A stretch of DNA of 26,172 nt from a virus. Its lineage: Duplodnaviria; Heunggongvirae; Uroviricota; Caudoviricetes. The notes below the pieces were generated by a model that worked only from the letters and a program-made list of their open reading frames with translations, made no database searches and was not told the origin of the DNA. Location: positions 1 to 26,172 of the IMG/VR virus record IMGVR_UViG_2548876702_000015, one strand, 5' to 3'. This document shows positions 3,844-26,172 of the stretch, in pieces. Position 1 is the stretch's first letter; each line of letters opens with the position of its first letter. Both the position numbers and the translations under genes were made by a program.

Positions 3844-4189
3844 TCTCTGCTCCTGTTGATACGGAAAGGGAAACAGGCACACCGTTATTACGCCGCCCGC
3901 TCAGCTCCACCACCATTGAACCGTCAAAATGGCTGTTGATGGTGATGGAATCCAGCGTCAGCCGTGGCTCCCAGCGACTCAGCGCCACATACACTGCCGA
4001 CATGACCTGCAGGCGTAACGCCGGATTTTGTGGCTGGTCTATCAGTGCCGACAGCAGGGAACCATATTCACGGCGAGCAATGCGGCTACCTTGCGGCGTC
4101 AGCAGAATGTCCCGCACCGACTGGCGCAGATGGTCAATATCAGTAATGACTTTGCCGCTGGTATTGTTCATCCCACTATAAAGCGTCAT
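3830..4189 (-). CDS. W: Baseplate wedge protein W (GPW/gp25 family)
   Basis: 119 aa, ATG at 4189-4187 overlapping the V stop (ATGA). Size and position match P2 gpW. Confidence 0.85.
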   Translation of the reverse strand: MTLYSGMNNTSGKVITDIDHLRQSVRDILLTPQGSRIARREYGSLLSALIDQPQNPALRLQVMSAVYVALSRWEPRLTLDSITINSHFDGSMVVELSGRRNNGVPVSLSVSTGAENGSD

Positions 4190-4764
4190 ACCGGGCCTCC
4201 GGTTGTATCGCCGCCTTTCAGGACGCCAGTATGCTGATGCGTATCAACCACGATCCCGTTAGAACTCATCGCTCCGCCGCCCTGGGTAACGCCACCATTG
4301 ATCACCACTTCGCTGTTAATGCGCGTGCGGTCAGCCTCCAGTACAAACTCACTGGTTTTCATGGTGATGTTGTCAGCGGCCTCAATGACCATTGATTTGA
4401 TGCCCCTGACATACCAGCGCCCGGTGGCGGGTTCGTATTCAAACCAGCCACCGTCAGGATGTTCTGTCACGCAGGCGTTCGCCGACGTCGACGGTGGCGC
4501 GAACTGATTCGAATAGATGGCGGGTAACGCAAAGGCGGTTTCCAGATTGCCGCCCAGACTCAGCAGCACCACCTGCTCACCTTCTGATGGTCGCCACCAT
4601 GTGCGGGCATTCCCGGCACGCAGCGTCAGCCAGCTGATCCAGTTGGTTTCAAGCTCGCCTGTTTTCACCCGACAAAGCCAGTTTTCCCGGTCCACTTCGG
4701 TGACTACACCTGTGCGGATCAGATTGGTGATAAGGCGCATGATTTCGGTTAATTGTGCGTTCAT
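4186..4764 (-). CDS. V: Baseplate spike/hub protein V (P2 gpV-like)
   Basis: 192 aa, ATG at 4764-4762. Gly-rich C-terminus typical of gpV spikes. Position between S and W. Confidence 0.85.
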   Translation of the reverse strand: MNAQLTEIMRLITNLIRTGVVTEVDRENWLCRVKTGELETNWISWLTLRAGNARTWWRPSEGEQVVLLSLGGNLETAFALPAIYSNQFAPPSTSANACVTEHPDGGWFEYEPATGRWYVRGIKSMVIEAADNITMKTSEFVLEADRTRINSEVVINGGVTQGGGAMSSNGIVVDTHQHTGVLKGGDTTGGPV

Positions 4765-17304: not shown

Positions 17305-17538
17305 TCAATGCAGCCAGCAGTCGTCTTCCCACACCTTCTGCATAATTTTCAGCACTTGTTTTCTTTCTTCGTCCAGTTGCAGTCCGGTCAGTTCCACACC
17401 GTTAGAGCTACCTTTGCGGATACGAATTACCGTTTTGGGATACAGGGGGCGCAGATTGCGGTAAAGCTCGGATTCAAGGGCATCCAGGGTAGACTGGCTA
17501 ATCTTCTGCTCTTTATCGATCATTATTTCAATGCGCAT
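17305..17538 (-). CDS. DinI-family protein (SOS-induced; Tum/DinI-like)
   Basis: 77 aa from ATG 17538-17536 with a GAGGTG SD. MRIEIMIDKEQ..LDALESELYRNLRPLYPKTVIRIRKGSSNGVELTGL..KQVLKIMQKVWEDDCW parallels E. coli DinI (MRIEVTIAK...) as recalled. Downstream of a LexA box. Confidence 0.6.
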   Translation of the reverse strand: MRIEIMIDKEQKISQSTLDALESELYRNLRPLYPKTVIRIRKGSSNGVELTGLQLDEERKQVLKIMQKVWEDDCWLH

Positions 17539-17548
17539 AAAAGTCACC

Positions 17549-17737
17549 TCAGCTGATGACATCCATTGAGCGGTTGTATTCGTGGGTTCTGATTTTTGCC
17601 ATGAGTTCATCTGTCAGTTCAGAAACCCACTGCAAAGCCAGCCCCTTCTCTTCATCACTACACTCACTAGCCGCTACAAGCTTAAGAAAAAAATCAATGC
17701 GCTGGAGCTTCAAAGACTCCAAAAAATAGTCCTGCAT
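17549..17737 (-). CDS. Small hypothetical protein (62 aa), first gene of the LexA-controlled operon
   Basis: ATG at 17737-17735 with a GGAGGA SD. Its stop overlaps the SD of the DinI-like gene (translational coupling). Confidence 0.45.
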   Translation of the reverse strand: MQDYFLESLKLQRIDFFLKLVAASECSDEEKGLALQWVSELTDELMAKIRTHEYNRSMDVIS

Positions 17738-17780
17738 CTTTCCTCCTATGACACCACAAGCAATACTGTATGCATAACCA

Positions 17781-17796
17781 CTGTTTATATTTACAG
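17781..17796 (-). promoter_or_regulatory. LexA (SOS) box overlapping the promoter of the small-protein/DinI-like operon
   Basis: CTGT-TTATATTT-ACAG (cCACTGTttatatttACAGTAta) fits the CTGT-N8-ACAG consensus with an AT-rich centre. On the transcribed strand a TATACT -10 overlaps the box and a TTTACA -35-like hexamer lies upstream. About 40 nt upstream of the ATG at 17737. Confidence 0.6.
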
Positions 17797-17890
17797 TATA
17801 TAATAATCTTACTGATGTAAAACGTTTTTTTACGTTCATCAGCCTGATATGCCTGGTATTATTAAGAGCACGAATTGTTAACCCGCGTAA

Positions 17891-21093: not shown

Positions 21094-21944
21094 ACTTGCA
21101 CCCCGAAAATAACAGTAGAGTCACGTCCCCTACTAAAATCGGCACTAAACCAATTAGCAGATTTAGTGGCAATCATCTCTGTTGCAAATTTTCCCTCCCC
21201 CGCTGCAACGCCGATGCTGCGTTTCGCCCTGATGTAGTGGTGAGTGAAATTACGATAAAGGGACCGGGTCAAAGACGTGTTACTGTTAGAAACAATGACC
21301 GGATGTCCTTCTGATGACCGATGTTCAAGAATGGATGCCAGGTGATACTGATCATCTTCAGTGAAACCATCAGTGTGATAGCCGGAAAACGTACCGTCAT
21401 AAGGCGGATCGCAATACACCACATCCCCCACCTTCAACATCGCCAGCGTTTCATCAAAGCTGGCGCAGATAAACGTTGCCCGCTGGGCTTTCTCTGCAAA
21501 TGCGCGAATTTCTTTTTCAGGGAAATACGGATTTTTATAATTACCGTAGGGAATGTTGAAATGCCCGCTCTTGTTATAGCGACATAAACCACGGTAACCG
21601 TGACGATTGAGATACAGGAAATATACCGCTTTCATGAAATCAGTAATTTCAGTGGAGTAATTAAACTCCTGCCTTATGTTGTAATAAGCCGCCTCCCTGT
21701 TTGCTTCCTCAAATAAAGCTCTGGCACGAGATATAAACGCCTCACAATCAGCAGCAACCTTTTTATAGAGGTTGATTAAATCAGGATTAATATCCGCAAC
21801 AAGATAGCTGGGGTAATCCGTCTCCATCATCACTGCACAGGAACCCGCGAAAGGTTCAACCAGTCGCGGGCCAGCAGGAAGATGCTTTTTCAGTTCGGAC
21901 ATTATGGCGGTTTTATTTCCTGCCCATTTCAGGATGGTGCTCAT
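21090..21944 (-). CDS. dam: DNA adenine methyltransferase (Dam/D12 class N6-adenine MTase)
   Basis: ATG at 21944-21942 ([11 protein letters not shown]..). SAM-binding motif ..[10 protein letters not shown].. and catalytic DPPY motif (VYCDPPYDG). 284 aa. Confidence 0.8.
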
Positions 21945-22168
21945 ACAGCACCTCCGTTGTAATGTTTGCCTTTCAGCTCTGCGATTTCCTGACAGGTAAT
22001 GCAAAGCTGCACACCCGGAATGGCACGGCGGCGTGCTGGCGGAATTGGCGCTTCACACTCAACGCAAAGCACGCGGGACACGCCCGGCGTTTTGGCACGG
22101 GCAGCACGGATATGGCGTTGGCGTTCTTCTTCAACGCGCTGCTGTACGAGATCCATTGCATCAGCCAT
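21941..22168 (-). CDS. TraR/DksA-family C4 zinc-finger protein
   Basis: 75 aa, ATG at 22168-22166. CVECEAPIP..(x17)..CITCQ four-cysteine zinc-finger spacing. Stop overlaps the Dam start. Confidence 0.7.
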   Translation of the reverse strand: MADAMDLVQQRVEEERQRHIRAARAKTPGVSRVLCVECEAPIPPARRRAIPGVQLCITCQEIAELKGKHYNGGAV

Positions 22169-22401
22169 CAGTGGATCTCCTGCGCTTCGTTCTGGATTGC
22201 TTCAGCAGTCACACGCAGCAGTTCTGCCGCTTCGACGTGGTTTAGCTGGCGGGAGGTGATATGACACGCCAGGCTATCGAGGCGAGCAGCCATTGCTTCA
22301 GCCCTTGCCCGGCGTTCTTCCAGACGAGCCTCTGTCAGTAAAAGATTAAGACCTGCATCATCCGGTCCGGTTTTGGTCGTGAGGGTTTCAATATTACGCA
22401 T
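22168..22401 (-). CDS. Small hypothetical early-operon protein
   Basis: ATG at 22401-22399 with an AGGAGA SD; 77 aa. Stop overlaps the TraR-like start (ATGA). Confidence 0.5.
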   Translation of the reverse strand: MRNIETLTTKTGPDDAGLNLLLTEARLEERRARAEAMAARLDSLACHITSRQLNHVEAAELLRVTAEAIQNEAQEIH

Positions 22402-22468
22402 AAGCAATTCTCCTGAATTTAGATAAAGGGATGCCCGGCGGGTTTACGCCATTAATTTCATTAGTTGG

Positions 22469-22810
22469 TTAATTCGGCATGGTTAGCCGTCTGGGAAATA
22501 AGCTCACCACTGCACGAAAATGATTCATTGCTTTAATCAGCTCCCGCTTTTCGTCAGTGGTCAGCTCATTAATGCTGATGCTATGACGTTCAGCTGGAAT
22601 TTTTGCCATAAAGAATATGGCAGCCAGTGCCCGTTTATTTTGTTCATTATTGATATCCCGTGGATCACGCATATCTTTAATAAACCGCTCAAGCTCTGAC
22701 TCAATATTCAGGCCAAAAACTTTCGCCCTTAACTCCGCAATGTGATTAAGTCCATTCAGGCGTTCACCGGGGCTTAATGGAACAGTTGCTGCAGCGCCAT
22801 TAATTGCCAT
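22469..22810 (-). CDS. Hypothetical early-operon protein (113 aa)
   Basis: ATG at 22810-22808. Coding-like composition. Position between cII and the replication genes. Confidence 0.5.
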   Translation of the reverse strand: MAINGAAATVPLSPGERLNGLNHIAELRAKVFGLNIESELERFIKDMRDPRDINNEQNKRALAAIFFMAKIPAERHSISINELTTDEKRELIKAMNHFRAVVSLFPRRLTMPN

Positions 22811-22832
22811 ACTTCATATCCCCCAAACGCAG

Positions 22833-23057
22833 CTATCGTTCTTTGTTCTTACGGTAACGCTCAAGAGGAGATACATTTTTTCGTATCGTCTCTTTAACCT
22901 GCTCTCCCCGTAAAAACGTCCCATCCTTTAACGCGAAAAAGTAACTGCCATCGCCCGACAATGACGGATAGCAACAGAGCAAATCATCTTCAGGTACTGA
23001 ATAACTCTCCCCTCTGTAACGAAACTGATAAACCACTTCACTTTCTGCCGCATACAT
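22833..23057 (-). CDS. Small hypothetical protein (74 aa)
   Basis: ATG at 23057-23055 with a GGAG SD 9 nt upstream. Overlaps an alternative ORF in another frame. Confidence 0.4.
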   Translation of the reverse strand: MYAAESEVVYQFRYRGESYSVPEDDLLCCYPSLSGDGSYFFALKDGTFLRGEQVKETIRKNVSPLERYRKNKER

Positions 23058-23231: not shown

Positions 23232-23741
23232 TCACAGCAAACCGAATGAAGCACCGAGGCCAGTCACGGTATCAACTGCACTCGCCATCGCAGGGTTAGC
23301 CTGTAAACGGGCCTGCAATGAAACAGCAGCCAACGCCATCAGTCGTGTTACAGAGTTAATGCTGCTGATAGCATCACGACGACCTGCACTGGTTTTTACA
23401 TCGCCAGATACCGCACCTGCAGCAACACGCCCGATCTCTGCGGTTGCACTCATGACGTAATGTGGCAGTTTCTCTTTTGCCACCTCATTAATTGGTACGC
23501 ATGGCAGGCAGTGAATCTGTGCCAGAAAACCATCTACCAACGTTGAATCTTCAGTCAGATCGGTAAGCAGCCAGATTTCTGGTGCGGTTAATAAATGAGG
23601 TTGAGCTGGGTTCAGCTTGTTCCGCAGAATCTGCACATTCATGCCCGCACGTTCTGCCAGTTGCACCAGATTGTGGCGCAGTGCGAATGCACGACAGGCT
23701 TCATCAAAATGTGGATGTTTGGAAACTTGGTAATCAAACAT
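23232..23741 (-). CDS. cII: CII-like lysogeny-establishment transcription activator (coliphage 186 CII homolog)
   Basis: ATG at 23741-23739 gives 169 aa starting [24 protein letters not shown].., which I recognise as close to 186 CII (169 aa). Sits downstream of the apl-like gene. Confidence 0.65.
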
Positions 23742-23805
23742 GGTTTTCAACTCCGAACTTATCGCAAAATCGAACTCAGCGTCTTATTGCGAAAATAGAC
23801 GTCTA

Positions 23806-24009
23806 TTAAGCAGACAAAGCATCAACAGTCAGAGCAGCCAGGTTAATCATTACCTTTTCACGTTTTTTGTCTTTACGAAGACGATGACGAGGTAGTCGGC
23901 CATCAGCCAACATGTCGTTAATCGTATCAATAGAAAGGCCAGTCAGTTCGCTATAACGTTCGATTGTGACATGTGGTGTATTCAGAGTAATTGAAATGTT
24001 AGGTGTCAT
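23806..24009 (-). CDS. apl: Apl/Cox-like excisionase-repressor (small HTH protein, first gene of the early lytic operon)
   Basis: 67 aa, ATG at 24009-24007. HTH-like ..[25 protein letters not shown].. with a basic C-terminus. Divergent from cI. Confidence 0.55.
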
Positions 24010-24154
24010 AAGGCAACATTCCTTCTAGGTATGGCTTGTGGCGAGCCGTTGTTTGTCGTGATTAGTAGTGAAGGCTCCAAAAGAACACTTCTGGTTCAAC
24101 TTTAAGATCGCTTTTGGAATCTGTCAACGAATTTTGGATTTCTTTGGAGGACTT
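24010..24154. promoter_or_regulatory. Lysis-lysogeny switch region (pR/pL promoters and operators) between divergent apl and cI
   Basis: 145-bp gap between the divergent early-lytic (apl-cII) and immunity (cI-int) operons. Individual operators were not resolved by eye. Confidence 0.4.
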
Positions 24155-24724
24155 GTGGATTTCAATAGCGGCGGTAAGAAAGCCATAGAACGTTTAGTTG
24201 AAGCATATGGGTTCGGTACCCGTCAGGCTCTCTGTGATCATTTAGGTGTTTCTAAGAGCACCATGGCAACGCGCTATATGCGTGATATTTTTCCAGCAGA
24301 TTGGGTAATCCAGTGCGCCCTTGAAACGGGCACCTCGCTTAATTGGCTAACAACAGGGCATGGTTCAAAGCAAGCATCAGCAAATACAAATACTATAGAA
24401 GTAGAAAAATATTTATTGTCTGATGGAGCATTGCAGAAAGACGGTTTTTATATTTTTGATAAGGAATTTCTACCCTCTACGTTTAAAAAACCTTTTGTCA
24501 TCACAGATAACAATTCTGAATTTATTTGTGATAAAGAATTTGATGATATACGTGATGGTAAATGGGTAATAAGTATTGATGGCGAAATAACGATCCGTGA
24601 CATTACTCGTTTACCCGGTGGAAGAATCTTCGTCGAGGGTGGAAACAGAGCCTTCGAATGCAAGATAGAAGACATTGAAATAATTGGTAAAATTATAAGT
24701 TTAACAGTCAAGTATGTTAAATAG
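24155..24724 (+). CDS. cI: Immunity repressor CI (coliphage 186 CI-like)
   Basis: GTG at 24155 with a GGAGG SD 4 nt upstream; ~189 aa. N-terminal HTH ..LVEAYGFGTRQALCDHLGVSKSTMATRYMRD..ALETGTSLNWLTTG parallels 186 CI (..ICEAYGFSQK..ALETGANLQWLLTG) as recalled. Confidence 0.7.
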   Translation: MDFNSGGKKAIERLVEAYGFGTRQALCDHLGVSKSTMATRYMRDIFPADWVIQCALETGTSLNWLTTGHGSKQASANTNTIEVEKYLLSDGALQKDGFYIFDKEFLPSTFKKPFVITDNNSEFICDKEFDDIRDGKWVISIDGEITIRDITRLPGGRIFVEGGNRAFECKIEDIEIIGKIISLTVKYVK

Positions 24725-24739
24725 TACCGGGAGGAAACT

Positions 24740-24931
24740 ATGCTTGGTAAGGTATTTTTTGTGGTTTTGTCATGTTCTTTGTTATTAAACCCACTAACTA
24801 CCTATGCTAGAAATTATCCCTGCTCAGGGAAAAAGGGAGGTGTTTCTCACTGTACCTCAGATGGCAAATTCGTTTGCAATGATGGAACTATTAGTAAATC
24901 CAAAAAAATCTGTACTAAAAACTCACGATAA
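24740..24931 (+). CDS. Small secreted cysteine-rich protein (moron) between cI and int
   Basis: 63 aa, ATG at 24740 with a GGGAGG SD. Signal-peptide-like N-terminus ([23 protein letters not shown]). Mature ~40 aa with 4 Cys ([33 protein letters not shown]). AT-rich. Confidence 0.5.
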
Positions 24932-25119
24932 CTTTTGCTTTTATATCTGCGTCTAAAATAAAAATGAGCCGCAGGTTAACCGCAAAAGTTACATGCTCAC
25001 ATAGCAAAAAGAATAGCCAACTTCATGATGGCTTCAGTGAGATGTATGGTCGTAGGATTTCATACATTGACACTGGTTATACATACAGTAAAAATGCTCT
25101 CTACTGGAGGGCATTTTTT

Positions 25120-26172
25120 ATGGCAGTACGAAAACTCACCACAGGGAAATGGCTTTGCGAATGTTACCCCGCCGGACGTAGTGGACGTCGTGTGCGTAAA
25201 CAATTCGCCACCAAAGGCGAAGCTCTGGCTTTTGAGCGCCACACGATGGAAGAAACCGAAGCAAAGCCCTGGCTGGGTGAATCAGTGGATCGTCGAACAC
25301 TGAAAGACGTAGTTGAGCTATGGTTCAAACTACATGGTAAATCTCTGACAGCTGGGCAGCATGTCTATGACAAATTGCTGTTGATGGTTGACGCTCTGGG
25401 TAATCCTCTTGCAACCGATCTCACCTCTAAAATGTTTGCCCACTATCGAGATAAACGCCTGACAGGCGAGATCTACTTCAGCGAGAAATGGAAGAAAGGA
25501 GCAAGCCCGGTCACCATTAACCTGGAGCAAAGCTATCTAAGTAGTGTTTTTAGCGAACTATCCCGTCTGGGCGAATGGTCGTATCCGAACCCACTGGAGA
25601 ACATGCGAAAATTCACCATCGCAGAAAAAGAGATGGCATGGCTTACCCATGAGCAGATTGTTGAATTGCTGGCTGATTGCAAACGTCAGGACCCAATTCT
25701 GGCACTGGTAGTTAAGATATGCTTAAGCACAGGCGCACGCTGGCGTGAAGCCGTAAATCTTACCCGCTCCCAGGTGACCAAATACCGAATTACCTTTGTC
25801 AGAACGAAGGGGAAGAAAAACAGAAGCATCCCTATCAGTAAAGAGCTTTACGAAGAGATCATGGCGCTTGATGGGTTCAATTTCTTTACAGACTACTATT
25901 TTCAATTTTTATCCGTGATGGAAAAAACGTCTATCGTGCTCCCTCGCGGTCAACTCACACACGTTCTGCGCCATACGTTTGCGGCGCACTTCATGATGTC
26001 GGGTGGAAACATTCTCGCCTTACAAAAAATTCTCGGACACCACGATATAAAAATGACTATGCGTTACGCACATCTGGCACCAGATCATCTGGAAACGGCG
26101 CTCCGTTTCAATCCTCTGGCAACGCTGCCAAGTGGCGACAAAGTGGCGGCAGCGGTTGGCATTACCCCGTAA
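25120..26172 (+). CDS. int: Tyrosine integrase (P2/186 Int family)
   Basis: ATG at 25120 with a GGAGG SD; 350 aa starting MAVRKLTTGKW.., paralleling P2 Int (MAIKKLDDGRYEV..). Catalytic-region motifs ..LSTGARWREA.. and ..HVLRHTFA..MTMRYAHL. Stop is at the window edge. Confidence 0.85.
   Translation: MAVRKLTTGKWLCECYPAGRSGRRVRKQFATKGEALAFERHTMEETEAKPWLGESVDRRTLKDVVELWFKLHGKSLTAGQHVYDKLLLMVDALGNPLATDLTSKMFAHYRDKRLTGEIYFSEKWKKGASPVTINLEQSYLSSVFSELSRLGEWSYPNPLENMRKFTIAEKEMAWLTHEQIVELLADCKRQDPILALVVKICLSTGARWREAVNLTRSQVTKYRITFVRTKGKKNRSIPISKELYEEIMALDGFNFFTDYYFQFLSVMEKTSIVLPRGQLTHVLRHTFAAHFMMSGGNILALQKILGHHDIKMTMRYAHLAPDHLETALRFNPLATLPSGDKVAAAVGITP

What the first reader, a model, noticed from the sequence alone, without database searches (positions are those of the whole stretch)
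24740..24931. Small secreted cysteine-rich protein (moron) inserted between the CI repressor gene and integrase
A 63-aa ORF with a good SD, a signal-peptide-like N-terminus and a ~40-aa mature part with four cysteines sits inside the lysogenic cI-int transcription unit and is AT-rich. Genes in this position are expressed in the lysogen and are often lysogenic-conversion or superinfection-exclusion factors.
Basis: partly seen in the sequence, partly recalled or inferred. Interest (0 to 1): 0.45.

Follow-up and report, generated by a model that had tools for sequence, protein, structure and literature searches.

The report
Prophage YdcA-family small periplasmic protein
This is a real, very strongly conserved 63-residue gene that a 186-like E. 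coli prophage places directly behind its repressor gene; it belongs to the already named but functionally uncharacterised YdcA family of tiny, basic, disulfide-bonded periplasmic proteins, so it is a catalogued gene whose role is still untested.

Summary
The ORF at 24740-24931 is real. It has a GGAGG Shine-Dalgarno 5 nt upstream, a signal peptide and a 40-residue basic mature part with four invariant cysteines. It is not new: it scores above the curated cut-off of NCBIfam NF007463 (PRK10040, YdcA), matches phrog_6000, and RefSeq calls the same gene "YdcA family protein". In the mature domain, synonymous sites are saturated while the amino-acid sequence barely changes.

The gene starts 15 bp after cI, on the same strand. 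A terminator-like hairpin lies just before int, so the likely transcription unit is cI-ydcA rather than cI-ydcA-int. Phage 186 lacks the gene. However, ydcA co-diverges with one cI lineage, and it also follows cI in Yersinia prophages and, unannotated, in Haemophilus phage HP2. Sister prophages carry defence genes in the same cI-int slot.

The domain is probably homologous to the lobes of Legionella T4SS protein Dis2. It is repeatedly fused to secreted nucleases and also occurs on plasmids and in core chromosomes.

Function is unknown. My best guess, at about 0.3, is a periplasmic module that binds DNA or another polyanion and hinders incoming DNA. The exclusion or lysogenic-conversion reading is plausible but untested. 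Interest is modest.

The parts
24155..24724 (+). cI repressor gene (186-type; GTG start as in RefSeq). It is the upstream partner of ydcA in the same operon.
   Evidence: Pfam Phage_CI_repr and Phage_CI_C. The RefSeq annotation of the 99.8% identical locus L003 gives 4156-4725, which is window 24155-24724. Identity is 33% to 186 CI, 32% to HP2 CI and 66% to the CI of L005.
24730..24734 (+). Shine-Dalgarno GGAGG of ydcA, 5 nt before the ATG
   Evidence: Read from the sequence.
24740..24931 (+). ydcA-family gene: 63 codons plus TAA
   Evidence: ORF list. NCBIfam NF007463 scores 115.8 bits against a cut-off of 93. phrog_6000 E 1.9e-34. Precomputed Pfam PF27300:YdcA on homologues. RefSeq 'YdcA family protein' WP_000900883.1.
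24740..24808 (+). Signal-peptide coding part (residues 1-23). Signal peptidase I is predicted to cut after T-Y-A23.
   Evidence: Hydrophobic core. Ala23 is invariant in the alignments while the rest varies. dN/dS is about 0.24-0.35 here, against 0.02 or less in the mature part.
24809..24928 (+). Mature 40-aa basic domain, [40 protein letters not shown], with invariant C28, C38, C46 and C58
   Evidence: Alignments A1-A3. pI 9.7. AlphaFold2 block-mean pLDDT is 86-89 across residues 31-50 and 81 across 51-60, with a beta-hairpin at 35-38/44-46. Synonymous sites are saturated with 1-3 replacements among E. coli and Klebsiella prophage alleles.
24929..24991 (+). Long imperfect hairpin directly after the ydcA stop codon. 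It is specific to this cargo variant, and no U-run follows it on the + strand.
   Evidence: RNA fold -20.5 kcal/mol, z -4.8. The scan reports a terminator-like site on the minus strand at 24985-24969. The region is absent from sister variants.
25067..25095 (+). Promoter-like site TTGACA-17-(T)AAAAT in the conserved int leader. Its spacer holds a CTG-N10-CAG palindrome resembling a LexA box.
   Evidence: Promoter scan. The sequence is conserved in all seven cargo variants, with CTG and CAG invariant. It matches the LexA consensus at 16 of 20 positions (my count). Function not tested.
25090..25119 (+). Terminator-like hairpin plus U6 that abuts the int ATG and contains the int SD (GGAGG 25106-25110). 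It is the likely 3' end of the cI-ydcA transcript.
   Evidence: Fold -15.9 kcal/mol, z -6.1. The whole spacer folds with z -6.1. The stem is kept by compensatory changes in L005, L015 and L019. The simple terminator scan did not list it.
25120..26172 (+). Tyrosine integrase gene, at the prophage end next to rcdA
   Evidence: Pfam Int_N and Phage_integrase. RefSeq annotation, with rcdA as the neighbour.

Best explanation
**What it is (shown).** This is a YdcA-family gene of a 186-like (Peduoviridae) E. coli prophage. It encodes a 63-aa precursor with a Sec-type signal peptide. The mature part is 40 aa, strongly basic, carries four invariant cysteines, and is under extreme purifying selection.

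**How it is expressed (inferred from anatomy).**
- It is translated from its own SD on the cI mRNA. That mRNA comes from the lysogenic promoter, and by analogy with 186 also from the CII-activated establishment promoter.
- The protein would therefore be made continuously in lysogens.
- The transcript probably ends at the hairpin and U-run just before int.

**Where it goes (inferred).** It is exported and cut after Ala23. In the periplasm it is oxidised to a two-disulfide mini-domain of the same kind as the lobes of Legionella Dis2.

**What it does (hypothesis).** The domain is a small binding module for a generic polyanionic ligand, most likely nucleic acid. That ligand is met in the cell envelope during DNA traffic. 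In the lysogen the free domain would bind or obstruct incoming DNA, or the envelope site through which it enters, whether the DNA comes from a superinfecting phage, conjugation or transformation. This would protect the resident element.

I put about 0.95 on the identity and localisation part. I put about 0.3 on the DNA/polyanion-binding, anti-entry mechanism.
For: **Identity**
- NF007463 scores 115.8 bits against a cut-off of 93, and phrog_6000 gives E 2e-34.
- RefSeq names it a YdcA family protein. It is 51% identical to K-12 YdcA.

**Export and disulfides**
- The signal sequence is variable but always signal-like, with Ala invariant at -1. The four cysteines are invariant.
- K-12 YdcA is described as having a signal sequence and being predicted periplasmic (PMC11340327).
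- The solved relative Dis2 has disulfide-pinned lobes near the outer membrane (PMC8486379).

**Selection**
- Window against L005 shows 21 synonymous differences on 21.5 synonymous sites, and 2 replacements on 80.5 sites.

**Operon**
- The gene is 15 bp after cI with its own SD and no intervening promoter or terminator hit.
- A strong hairpin plus U6 precedes int and is conserved with compensatory changes.

**Link to DNA traffic**
- The same N-terminal domain is fused to SNase (P0102), Endonuclease_NS (P0168, P0196, P0194; genome locus L149), a PLD-type domain (P0171) and an HNH-like tail (P0206). No other enzyme class was seen among the longer members.
- The domain is basic throughout the family, with a mean net charge of +3.6 over 33-35 residues in 192 distinct domains. 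Gly/Lys/Ser-rich loops (CSGKKGG, SKSKK) are conserved.
- Carriers are elements that move DNA:
  - prophage lysogeny modules in E. coli, Klebsiella, Yersinia, Haemophilus, Comamonas, Acinetobacter and Kingella;
  - 504 IMG/VR viral contigs;
  - plasmids, including a 3.9-kb MOBQ plasmid where it follows 'traD';
  - a T4SS component, Dis2.
- The slot it occupies holds anti-phage genes in sister prophages: PDC-S20 KAP NTPase, PD-Lambda-1, PDC-M11. In K139 it holds the periplasmic exclusion protein Glo.
- Mobile elements are known to use periplasmic DNases against incoming DNA (PMC12378983).
Against: - No experiment bears on this protein. DNA binding is inferred only from charge and from domain fusions. 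An N-terminal domain on secreted nucleases could equally be an anchoring or sorting module.
- During phage infection or conjugation the DNA is normally shielded inside a tube or channel, so a free periplasmic binder may never meet it.
- Many family members sit in ordinary chromosomal contexts: hom-ydcA-cysS, rplS...ydcA-DUF2946-PepSY_TM, cybB-rydC-ydcA. This points to a housekeeping or stress role.
- K-12 ydcA is reported as acid-induced, and its deletion sensitises E. coli W to 3-hydroxypropionate (PMC7642389).
- The protein is absent from PADLOC.
- Signal-peptide cleavage and disulfide pairing were not computed with dedicated tools.
- The terminator before int is predicted only.
Confidence: 0.3

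Rival explanations
1. Envelope-machine adaptor (Dis2-like). The mature domain binds a protein or the inner face of the outer membrane and not DNA. It could dock onto a secretin, a T4SS, a type IV pilus or another outer-membrane complex. In a lysogen this would mask or alter a phage receptor or entry route, giving classical superinfection exclusion by receptor or entry-site modification. In the nuclease fusions it would simply tether the enzyme to the envelope.
For: - The only solved relative is Dis2, a peripheral subunit of the Dot/Icm outer-membrane cap positioned near the outer membrane. Support: Foldseek top hit, profile E 1.7e-4 and 0.0065, hhalign 83%, a Dis2-like protein carrying the precomputed PF27300 hit, and the description in PMC8486379.
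- In several P2-like prophages ydcA is flanked by another signal-peptide or lipoprotein gene.
- K139 Glo is a periplasmic exclusion protein in the same slot.
Against: - E. coli prophage hosts have no Dot/Icm system, and no conserved partner gene was found across 80 loci.
- Extreme sequence conservation across alpha-, beta- and gamma-proteobacteria is hard to reconcile with a protein partner that differs between hosts.
- Dis2 has two lobes and five disulfides, whereas this protein has one lobe and four cysteines.
Confidence: 0.2
2. Host-benefit stress factor (lysogenic conversion in the mild sense). The prophage copy does what chromosomal YdcA does: a periplasmic protective role under acid, organic-acid or envelope stress. 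It would raise lysogen fitness and have no effect on other phages.
For: - Chromosomal ydcA is core in E. coli and Shigella and occurs in core contexts elsewhere.
- It is reported as YdcI-controlled and acid-induced, and its deletion makes E. coli W sensitive to 300 mM 3-hydroxypropionate (PMC7642389).
- Very high conservation fits a generic physicochemical role.
Against: - The published phenotype is a single observation without a mechanism.
- It does not explain the repeated fusions to nucleases, or the preference for lysogeny modules, small mobilisable plasmids and 504 viral contigs.
- An E. coli lysogen already has the chromosomal copy, so a second copy only 51% identical overall adds little.
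Confidence: 0.15
3. Cationic antimicrobial or toxin-like peptide. A small, +7, disulfide-stabilised secreted peptide that harms competitors or non-lysogens, in the manner of a bacteriocin, or that acts as a periplasmic toxin with an unseen partner.
For: - Size, charge and cysteine content resemble defensin-like peptides.
- It is carried on plasmids and prophages.
- K-12 ydcA lies beside the hokB/sokB toxin-antitoxin locus.
Against: - No immunity, export or processing gene is linked to it.
- Sec export ends in the periplasm.
- Chromosomal single-copy genes without a partner are common.
- Constitutive expression with cI would be self-harming.
Confidence: 0.04
4. Chance ORF or decaying remnant with no function.
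For: It is short and AT-rich, and small ORFs of this kind arise easily.
Against: - HMM E-values are around 1e-34.
- There are 459 clusters at 50% identity in the family.
- The exact cI-ydcA-int arrangement is present in 591 of 5426 complete E. coli genomes.
- dN/dS is 0.02 or less in the mature part.
Confidence: 0.01

Closest known systems
E. coli K-12 YdcA (b1419; NCBIfam PRK10040 models NF007462/NF007463; Pfam PF27300 'YdcA'; phrog_6000)
   Same: - Same family. The window protein passes the curated NF007463 cut-off.
- Same architecture: a signal peptide, then PCSG-KGG-x3-C ... F-x-C-x-DG-x2-S-x-S-K-x2-C with four cysteines.
- Same size class, 57 against 63 aa.
- Function unknown in both (PMC11340327).
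   Different: - Only 51% identical overall; the signal peptides are unrelated.
- K-12 ydcA is chromosomal, between rydC and hokB, and reportedly YdcI- and acid-regulated (PMC7642389).
- The window copy is prophage-borne and wired to the cI operon.
- It matches the NF007463 sub-model and not the K-12 sub-model NF007462 (68.5 bits, below the cut-off of 118).
Legionella pneumophila Dis2 (Lpg0823), outer-membrane-cap subunit of the Dot/Icm type IVB secretion system (PDB 7MUC/7MUD)
   Same: - It is the best structural hit (Foldseek probability 0.77) and the best sequence hit in the PDB.
- Shared motif: C-S-K-x-GG-[IV]-x-x-C ... [FLV]-V-C-N-[DN]-G-x-x-S.
- Both have a signal peptide, are disulfide-rich and sit in the Gram-negative envelope (PMC8486379).
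- A Dis2-like protein carries the precomputed Pfam YdcA hit.
   Different: - Dis2 has two tandem lobes pinned by five disulfides and is a stoichiometric part of a T4SS. The window protein is a single free lobe with four cysteines in a host without Dot/Icm.
- The papers I read describe Dis2 as restricted to Legionellales (PMC12716638).
Glo of Vibrio phage K139 (Peduoviridae)
   Same: - Same place and logic. A signal-peptide-bearing periplasmic protein encoded between cI and int on the lysogenic strand of a P2-related phage, annotated as 'periplasmic protein; involved in phage exclusion'.
- This cI-int interval is described as a defence hotspot (PMC9122126).
   Different: - There is no sequence relationship. 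hhalign gives probability 2.7%, and only the signal peptides align.
- Glo is 137 aa.
Periplasmic or secreted DNases of mobile elements that block incoming DNA (Dns of Campylobacter CJIE1; endonucleases of CJIE2/CJIE4; IdeA/SxnA of Vibrio ICEs)
   Same: - They are carried by mobile elements, exported, and act on DNA entering the cell (PMC12378983).
- The YdcA domain is found fused N-terminally to the same kinds of catalytic domains: Endonuclease_NS, SNase, PLD, HNH-like.
   Different: - The window protein has no catalytic domain, so at most it could bind.
- Whether the fused nucleases are themselves on mobile elements could not be checked.
Defence cargo of the cI-int slot in sister prophages (KAP NTPase/PDC-S20, PD-Lambda-1/SNIPE-type, PDC-M11A/B)
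   Same: They occupy the same interval of the same rcdA-integrated 186-like prophage family, on the same strand, upstream of the same conserved int leader.
   Different: - ydcA is not in PADLOC.
- It is not interchangeable cargo. It stays attached to its cI lineage, and the KAP NTPase is inserted downstream of it.

Membership tests
YdcA family (NCBIfam NF007463 / PRK10040; Pfam PF27300; phrog_6000) | Whole-protein HMM score above the curated cut-off | tested here: met
   NF007463 scores 115.8 bits against a cut-off of 93, E 5.3e-34, covering residues 5-63. phrog_6000 gives E 1.9e-34. PF27300 is not in the local Pfam copy but is precomputed on all close homologues.
YdcA family (NCBIfam NF007463 / PRK10040; Pfam PF27300; phrog_6000) | Four conserved cysteines, spaced C-x9-C-x7-C-x11-C here, within the motif PCSG.KGG...C....F.C.DG..S.SK..C | tested here: met
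   P27, C28, S29, K32, G33, G34, C38, F44, C46, D48, G49, S52, S54, K55 and C58 are invariant in 25-26 sequences. The same holds in 50 mature domains.
YdcA family (NCBIfam NF007463 / PRK10040; Pfam PF27300; phrog_6000) | N-terminal Sec signal peptide cleaved by signal peptidase I | tested here: inconclusive
   The n/h/c regions are present, with T-Y-A at -3 to -1. Ala at -1 is invariant in the alignments. No SignalP run or experiment was possible.
Bacterial lipoprotein | Lipobox [LVI][ASTVI][GAS]C at the end of a signal peptide of about 15-35 residues, conserved in homologues | tested here: not met
   V-L-S-C12 loosely fits, but the cysteine is at position 12, leaving only about 7 hydrophobic residues before it. 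Homologues have L-L-F-C, L-L-I-C or no cysteine there. A hydrophobic stretch and the invariant Ala23 follow it.
Moron (autonomous extra gene in a prophage) | Absent from close relatives of the phage | tested here: met
   In phage 186 cI (22433-23011) abuts int (21423-22433) with nothing between them. Sister prophages have other genes or none in the slot.
Moron (autonomous extra gene in a prophage) | Own promoter and terminator, and a base composition distinct from its neighbours | tested here: not met
   No promoter hit lies between cI and ydcA, and the gap is 15 bp. The low GC is shared with the cI C-terminal half and the spacer. cI and ydcA align as one co-diverged block with L005.
K139 Glo-type periplasmic exclusion protein | Encoded between cI and int on the lysogenic strand of a P2-related phage, and exported | tested here: met
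   Window gene order compared with the K139 annotation cI-orf2-glo-int. Export is inferred from the signal peptide.
K139 Glo-type periplasmic exclusion protein | Sequence homology to Glo | tested here: not met
   hhalign probability is 2.7%, and only the signal peptides align.
K139 Glo-type periplasmic exclusion protein | Reduces plating of the same or other phages | not testable with these tools
   Needs efficiency-of-plating assays on lysogens with and without ydcA.
Dis2 (Lpg0823) of the Dot/Icm T4SS | Sequence or structure similarity of the lobe | tested here: inconclusive
   [not shown]
Dis2 (Lpg0823) of the Dot/Icm T4SS | Two lobes with five disulfides, and part of a Dot/Icm system | tested here: not met
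   The window protein has a single lobe with four cysteines. No T4SS genes are in the window or its relatives. The Dis2 description comes from PMC8486379.
Known anti-phage defence systems (PADLOC-DB 2.0) | Match to a defence-protein model | tested here: not met
   No hit for the window protein or for P0012, while the neighbouring cargo genes match PDC-S20, PD-Lambda-1 and PDC-M11.

The most novel reading that the evidence does not exclude
The YdcA domain is a widespread extracytoplasmic DNA-binding mini-domain that has gone unrecognised as such. Prophages (behind their repressor), plasmids (beside mob/tra genes), a T4SS (Dis2) and secreted nucleases would all use it to capture or block DNA in the periplasm. 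The free prophage form would then be a general anti-entry factor against superinfecting phage DNA, conjugation or natural transformation, made constitutively with cI.
Probability: 0.2. Interest if true: 0.7.

Novelty: already known. Interest (0 to 1): 0.3.

Why it matters
About one complete E. coli genome in nine carries this exact cI-ydcA-int arrangement. The domain is also spread by phages, plasmids and chromosomes across Proteobacteria. Yet no function is known for any member.

If the free domain interferes with incoming DNA, it would be a very small, constitutively expressed protective factor linked to the immunity gene itself. It would also give a first functional handle on Dis2 and on the N-terminal domain of a set of secreted nucleases.

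If it is only a periplasmic stress protein, the finding is an ordinary accessory gene. In both cases the gene is already catalogued, so the value here is context and testable leads, not discovery.

Tried and rejected
- **Local Pfam copy.** No family was found for the protein, only a chance GULLO2 hit at E 0.075. The family model PF27300 is newer than the local copy.
- **Structure searches.**
  - BFVD viral structures gave nothing significant.
  - The afdb50 library was unavailable.
- **PADLOC.** No hit.
- **Rfam on 23600-25400.** Only two chance CRISPR-repeat-like hits at E about 1.
- **Isolated phages.**
  - The megablast phage search matched only the apl/cII side.
  - No deposited phage record matches 80% or more of the protein. 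The tblastn hits are in Moraxella, Acinetobacter, Haemophilus and Pseudomonas phages.
- **Unrelated genes with the same name, rejected.**
  - Bacillus YdcA is a rhomboid protease (titles).
  - Gonococcal-island 'ydcA' is described as a toxin-antitoxin component.
- **Other rejected readings.**
  - Glo homology.
  - The lipoprotein reading: Cys12 is too early and the lipobox is not conserved.
  - LDL-receptor class A repeats, which appear just below Dis2 in the PDB profile search (E 0.03-0.1). I regard these as cysteine-pattern resemblance.
  - The UniRef name 'Conjugal transfer protein' for this cluster, which has no visible basis beyond adjacency to 'traD' in some small plasmids.
- **Not tested.** I recalled a motif resemblance to DUF3761 (C-x-DG-T-x-S-x-S ... 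C-S-x-H-GGV, possibly a circular permutation). The only check used a consensus I wrote from memory, which is not evidence.
Full report
**1. The observation**

GGAGG lies at 24730-24734, 5 nt upstream of the ATG. The cI stop codon is at 24722-24724, so only 15 bp separate the two genes.

The N-terminus is [23 protein letters not shown]. It has the three regions of a Sec signal peptide, with T-Y-A at positions -3 to -1, and its hydropathy is 1.9-2.7 over the core. The remaining 40 residues are [40 protein letters not shown]. They are polar, with pI 9.7, 9 K/R against 2 D/E, and four cysteines. A fifth cysteine, C12, lies in the signal peptide.

The ORF is 35.4% GC against 50.4% for the window. 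The low-GC block is wider than the ORF, though. It also covers the C-terminal half of cI (32.7%) and the spacer before int (37.2%). The description is confirmed.

**2. What it is**

The protein passes the curated cut-off of NCBIfam NF007463 (PRK10040.1-2): 115.8 bits against 93, E 5e-34. It also matches phrog_6000 at E 2e-34. The local Pfam copy finds nothing. All close homologues nevertheless carry a precomputed hit to PF27300, which the context tool names 'YdcA'.

RefSeq annotates the gene in a 99.8% identical locus as 'YdcA family protein' WP_000900883.1. The order there is cI, ydcA, int, and the prophage sits next to rcdA. The window is therefore the early and immunity end of a 186-like (Peduoviridae) E. 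coli prophage. Its genes are cII (Phage_CP76), an apl/cox-like gene, a 186-type CI and a tyrosine integrase.

The namesake is E. coli K-12 YdcA (b1419, 57 aa), which is 51% identical. The literature describes it as a small protein of unknown function with a signal sequence, predicted to be periplasmic (PMC11340327). One study reports that it is YdcI-controlled and acid-induced, and that deleting it sensitises E. coli W to 3-hydroxypropionate (PMC7642389).

**3. It is a working gene under very strong constraint**

Alignment of 25-26 family members shows a variable but always signal-like N-terminus that ends in an invariant Ala. An almost frozen mature domain follows, with P27, C28, S29, K32, G33, G34, C38, F44, C46, D48, G49, S52, S54, K55 and C58 invariant. 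The same holds for 50 mature domains drawn from 192 distinct ones.

I ran Nei-Gojobori counts on the 34-codon mature core:

| Region | Comparison | Synonymous | Non-synonymous | dN/dS |
|---|---|---|---|---|
| Mature core | Window vs L005 allele | 21 differences on 21.5 sites (saturated) | 2 on 80.5 sites | not computable (dS saturated) |
| Mature core | Two other allele pairs with computable dS | – | – | 0.015-0.018 |
| Signal-peptide part | Allele pairs | – | – | 0.24-0.35 |

An exhaustive profile search found 459 clusters (at 50% identity) with E <= 0.001. AlphaFold2 gives a small beta-hairpin domain. Block-mean pLDDT is 86-89 across residues 31-50 and 81 across 51-60, and 76 overall.

**4. 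Context in this prophage**

ydcA follows cI by 15 bp on the same strand, with no promoter or terminator hit between them. It must therefore be read from the cI message.

The 188-bp spacer downstream folds much better than shuffled controls (z -6.1). It contains two elements:

- A cargo-specific hairpin at 24929-24991, directly after the stop codon.
- A 13-bp hairpin plus U6 at 25090-25119 (-15.9 kcal/mol, z -6.1). The U-run abuts the int ATG at 25120, and the 3' arm contains the int Shine-Dalgarno.

This int leader, from about 25031-25060 onward, is shared by all cargo variants of the prophage. The stem is maintained by compensatory changes in the E. coli and Klebsiella variants.

I infer that the lysogenic transcript is cI-ydcA and largely stops before int. 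This has not been shown.

**5. Context in relatives**

Phage 186 has cI abutting int, with no gene between them. Relative to the prototype, ydcA is therefore extra.

In the same rcdA-integrated prophage family, the interval between cI and the int leader holds one of four contents:

- ydcA alone. This is the window type, covered at 80% or more in 591 of 5426 complete E. coli genomes.
- ydcA plus a KAP-family NTPase, matching the PADLOC candidate PDC-S20.
- A PD-Lambda-1/SNIPE-type protein, without ydcA.
- PDC-M11A/B plus another gene, without ydcA.

The interval is thus a defence and accessory hotspot. This agrees with published descriptions for K139-like phages (PMC9122126) and with minor P2 hotspots (PMC13586616).

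ydcA does not behave like swappable cargo, for three reasons:

- It stays with one cI lineage.
- The cI-ydcA block of L005 aligns with the window as a single co-diverged stretch at 67% DNA identity.
- The KAP gene is inserted downstream of ydcA, with the break at window 24908.

The same pairing recurs far away. Yersinia prophages have the order cI, ydcA, int. Haemophilus phages HP2 and S2 have an unannotated 60-aa YdcA ORF whose ATG overlaps the cI stop. It is followed by a secreted OB-fold (tRNA_anti-like) protein and then int. HP2 CI is only 32% identical to the window CI, whereas about three-quarters of the mature YdcA residues are the same (tblastn 73.5% over residues 27-60).

I examined 80 species-level genomic loci:

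| Context | Loci |
|---|---|
| 186/HP-type lysogeny module (in six of the seven, ydcA lies one or two genes downstream of cI) | 7 |
| Other P2-like prophages near gpD/gpU, in Comamonas, Iodobacter, Acinetobacter, Kingella and Aquabacterium. In at least four an XRE-type repressor lies one or two genes upstream; several have another signal-peptide or lipoprotein gene alongside. | about 7 |
| E. coli cybB-rydC-ydcA-hokB context | 5 |
| Citrobacter/Atlantibacter rplS ... ydcA-DUF2946-PepSY_TM context | 6 |

A further chromosomal context, hom-ydcA-cysS, was seen for homologue P0052.

Elsewhere, the gene is in the late region of Moraxella phages and in 504 IMG/VR contigs. It is also on 57 plasmids, including a 3.9-kb MOBQ Acinetobacter plasmid where it follows 'traD'.

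**6. Relationships of the domain**

The only solved relative is Dis2 (Lpg0823) of the Legionella Dot/Icm T4SS outer-membrane cap. The evidence is:

- Best Foldseek hit, probability 0.77, E 0.37, 38-44% identity.
- Best PDB sequence hit with the full profile, E 1.7e-4, partly helped by the signal peptide.
- Still the best hit with a mature-only profile, E 0.0065, with both Dis2 lobes aligning.
- hhalign probabilities of 83% and 70% against two Dis2-like proteins, one of which carries the precomputed PF27300 hit.

Dis2 is described as two similar lobes pinned by five disulfides near the outer membrane, with no structural relatives (PMC8486379). It is dispensable for T4SS assembly and function (PMC12716638).

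Longer family members show a consistent pattern. The YdcA domain sits directly after the signal peptide and is followed by a nuclease domain:

- SNase (P0102).
- Endonuclease_NS (P0168, P0196, P0194, and genome locus L149).
- A PLD-type domain (P0171).
- An HNH-like tail (P0206, weak).

Other members have tandem copies, a PBCV basic-adaptor-like Cys domain, or a VasL-like region. No other enzyme class was seen. The domain is basic across the family, with a mean net charge of +3.6 over 33-35 residues.

**7. Mechanism**

These points are shown or strongly supported:

- It is an exported precursor.
- The cysteines are invariant.
- The mature part is under extreme purifying selection.
- It is co-located with cI.

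These points are inferred:

- It is expressed constitutively in lysogens.
- It is oxidised by the Dsb system to a two-disulfide mini-domain.

My best hypothesis for function, at about 0.3, is that the domain binds a generic polyanionic ligand, most likely nucleic acid. The free prophage form would then hinder DNA entering through the envelope. This rests on four observations:

- The repeated fusions to four kinds of secreted nuclease.
- The positive charge and the conserved Gly/Lys/Ser loops.
- Carriage by elements and machines that move DNA.
- The defence character of the slot, including K139 Glo, a periplasmic exclusion protein in the same position that is not homologous.

It also explains why the peptide is nearly identical from Haemophilus to Rhizobium, which a phage-specific exclusion factor would not be.

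The main objections are these. Nothing has been measured. Incoming phage or conjugative DNA is normally shielded. Many copies are chromosomal.

The rivals are:

| Rival | Confidence |
|---|---|
| Dis2-like adaptor that docks on an envelope machine or the outer membrane | 0.2 |
| Periplasmic stress factor like chromosomal YdcA | 0.15 |
| Cationic toxin-like peptide | 0.04 |
| Chance ORF (refuted by the conservation data) | 0.01 |

The remainder is 'something else'.

**8. Comparison and novelty**

Membership in the YdcA family is met on the curated score and on the motif. The signal peptide is supported by comparison only. The protein is not a lipoprotein: Cys12 is too early and the lipobox is not conserved. 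It is not a PADLOC defence protein, not a Glo homologue, and not a Dis2 orthologue, since it has one lobe and no T4SS partner.

The gene and its family are already catalogued, so I rate it 'already known' with an unknown function.

This analysis adds the following, none of which I found in the papers I read:

- The stable linkage to a cI lineage across Peduoviridae.
- The unannotated HP2/S2 gene.
- The probable Dis2 relationship.
- The nuclease fusions.
- The likely insulation of int from the cI-ydcA transcript.

Interest is modest, at 0.3. It would rise if a DNA-entry phenotype were shown.

Noticed in passing
window 25031-25119: The int leader is conserved in all cargo variants of this prophage family. 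It contains a promoter-like TTGACA-17-TAAAAT. Inside the spacer is a CTG-N10-CAG palindrome resembling a LexA box (CACTGGTTATACATACAGTA, 16/20 to consensus, with CTG and CAG invariant in 7 variants). A terminator-like hairpin plus U6 abuts the int ATG and buries the int SD, and its stem is kept by compensatory changes. This suggests int is insulated from the cI transcript and separately, perhaps SOS-, controlled.
   Followed up: partly
[not shown]
   Followed up: yes
window 17779-17798: A strong LexA-box match (CACTGTTTATATTTACAGTA; 3 mismatches, none expected by chance). It lies upstream of small minus-strand ORFs, including a DinI/Tum-like 101-aa ORF at 17305-17610. This is consistent with a 186-type SOS-inducible antirepressor.
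   Followed up: partly
L005 5198-6529; L019 2841-4517; L020 2278-4482; L021 4437-5768: In sister prophages integrated at the same site (next to rcdA), the cI-int interval carries a KAP-family NTPase (PADLOC PDC-S20), a PD-Lambda-1/SNIPE-type protein, or PDC-M11A/B plus another gene. It is a defence hotspot of 186-like prophages.
   Followed up: partly
window 24361-25119: A low-GC block (33-37% against 50% for the window) spans the cI C-terminal domain, ydcA and the spacer, while the cI N-terminal DNA-binding part is 48% GC. This suggests the cI C-terminal domain and ydcA share a history distinct from the rest of the prophage.
   Followed up: no
window 24908 (vs L021 4409): Homology to the ydcA+KAP variant (96.6% from 23700) breaks inside the last codons of ydcA, and the KAP NTPase cargo begins there. 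In that comparison the mature-coding part shows dS 0.86 against 0.16 in the signal part, which hints at mosaicism within the gene.
   Followed up: no
L183 728-904 (Acinetobacter pittii plasmid pApiMCR53a, 3916 bp): A five-gene MOBQ mobilisable plasmid carries a YdcA homologue directly after a 'TraD' gene. In all, 57 plasmids carry the domain, mainly from Acinetobacter and Rhizobium.
   Followed up: partly
L149 1732-2655; L161 3966-4622; proteins P0102, P0168, P0171, P0194, P0196, P0206: These are secreted proteins in which an N-terminal YdcA domain is fused to Endonuclease_NS, SNase, PLD-type or HNH-like nuclease domains. Other members are tandem repeats of 2-3 domains, or carry a PBCV basic-adaptor-like Cys domain or a VasL-like region.
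   Followed up: partly
L004 5443-6176 (E. coli K-12): Chromosomal ydcA lies between the sRNA gene rydC and the hokB/mokB/sokB toxin-antitoxin locus. That is a plasmid-type module, which may mean the 'core' copy also arrived on a mobile element.
   Followed up: no
window 24068 vs 24155: The mechanical ORF list starts cI at GTG 24068 (218 aa). RefSeq starts it at GTG 24155 (189 aa), which fits the Pfam HTH domain beginning at residue 39 of the long form and leaves room for the pR/pL operator region.
   Followed up: no
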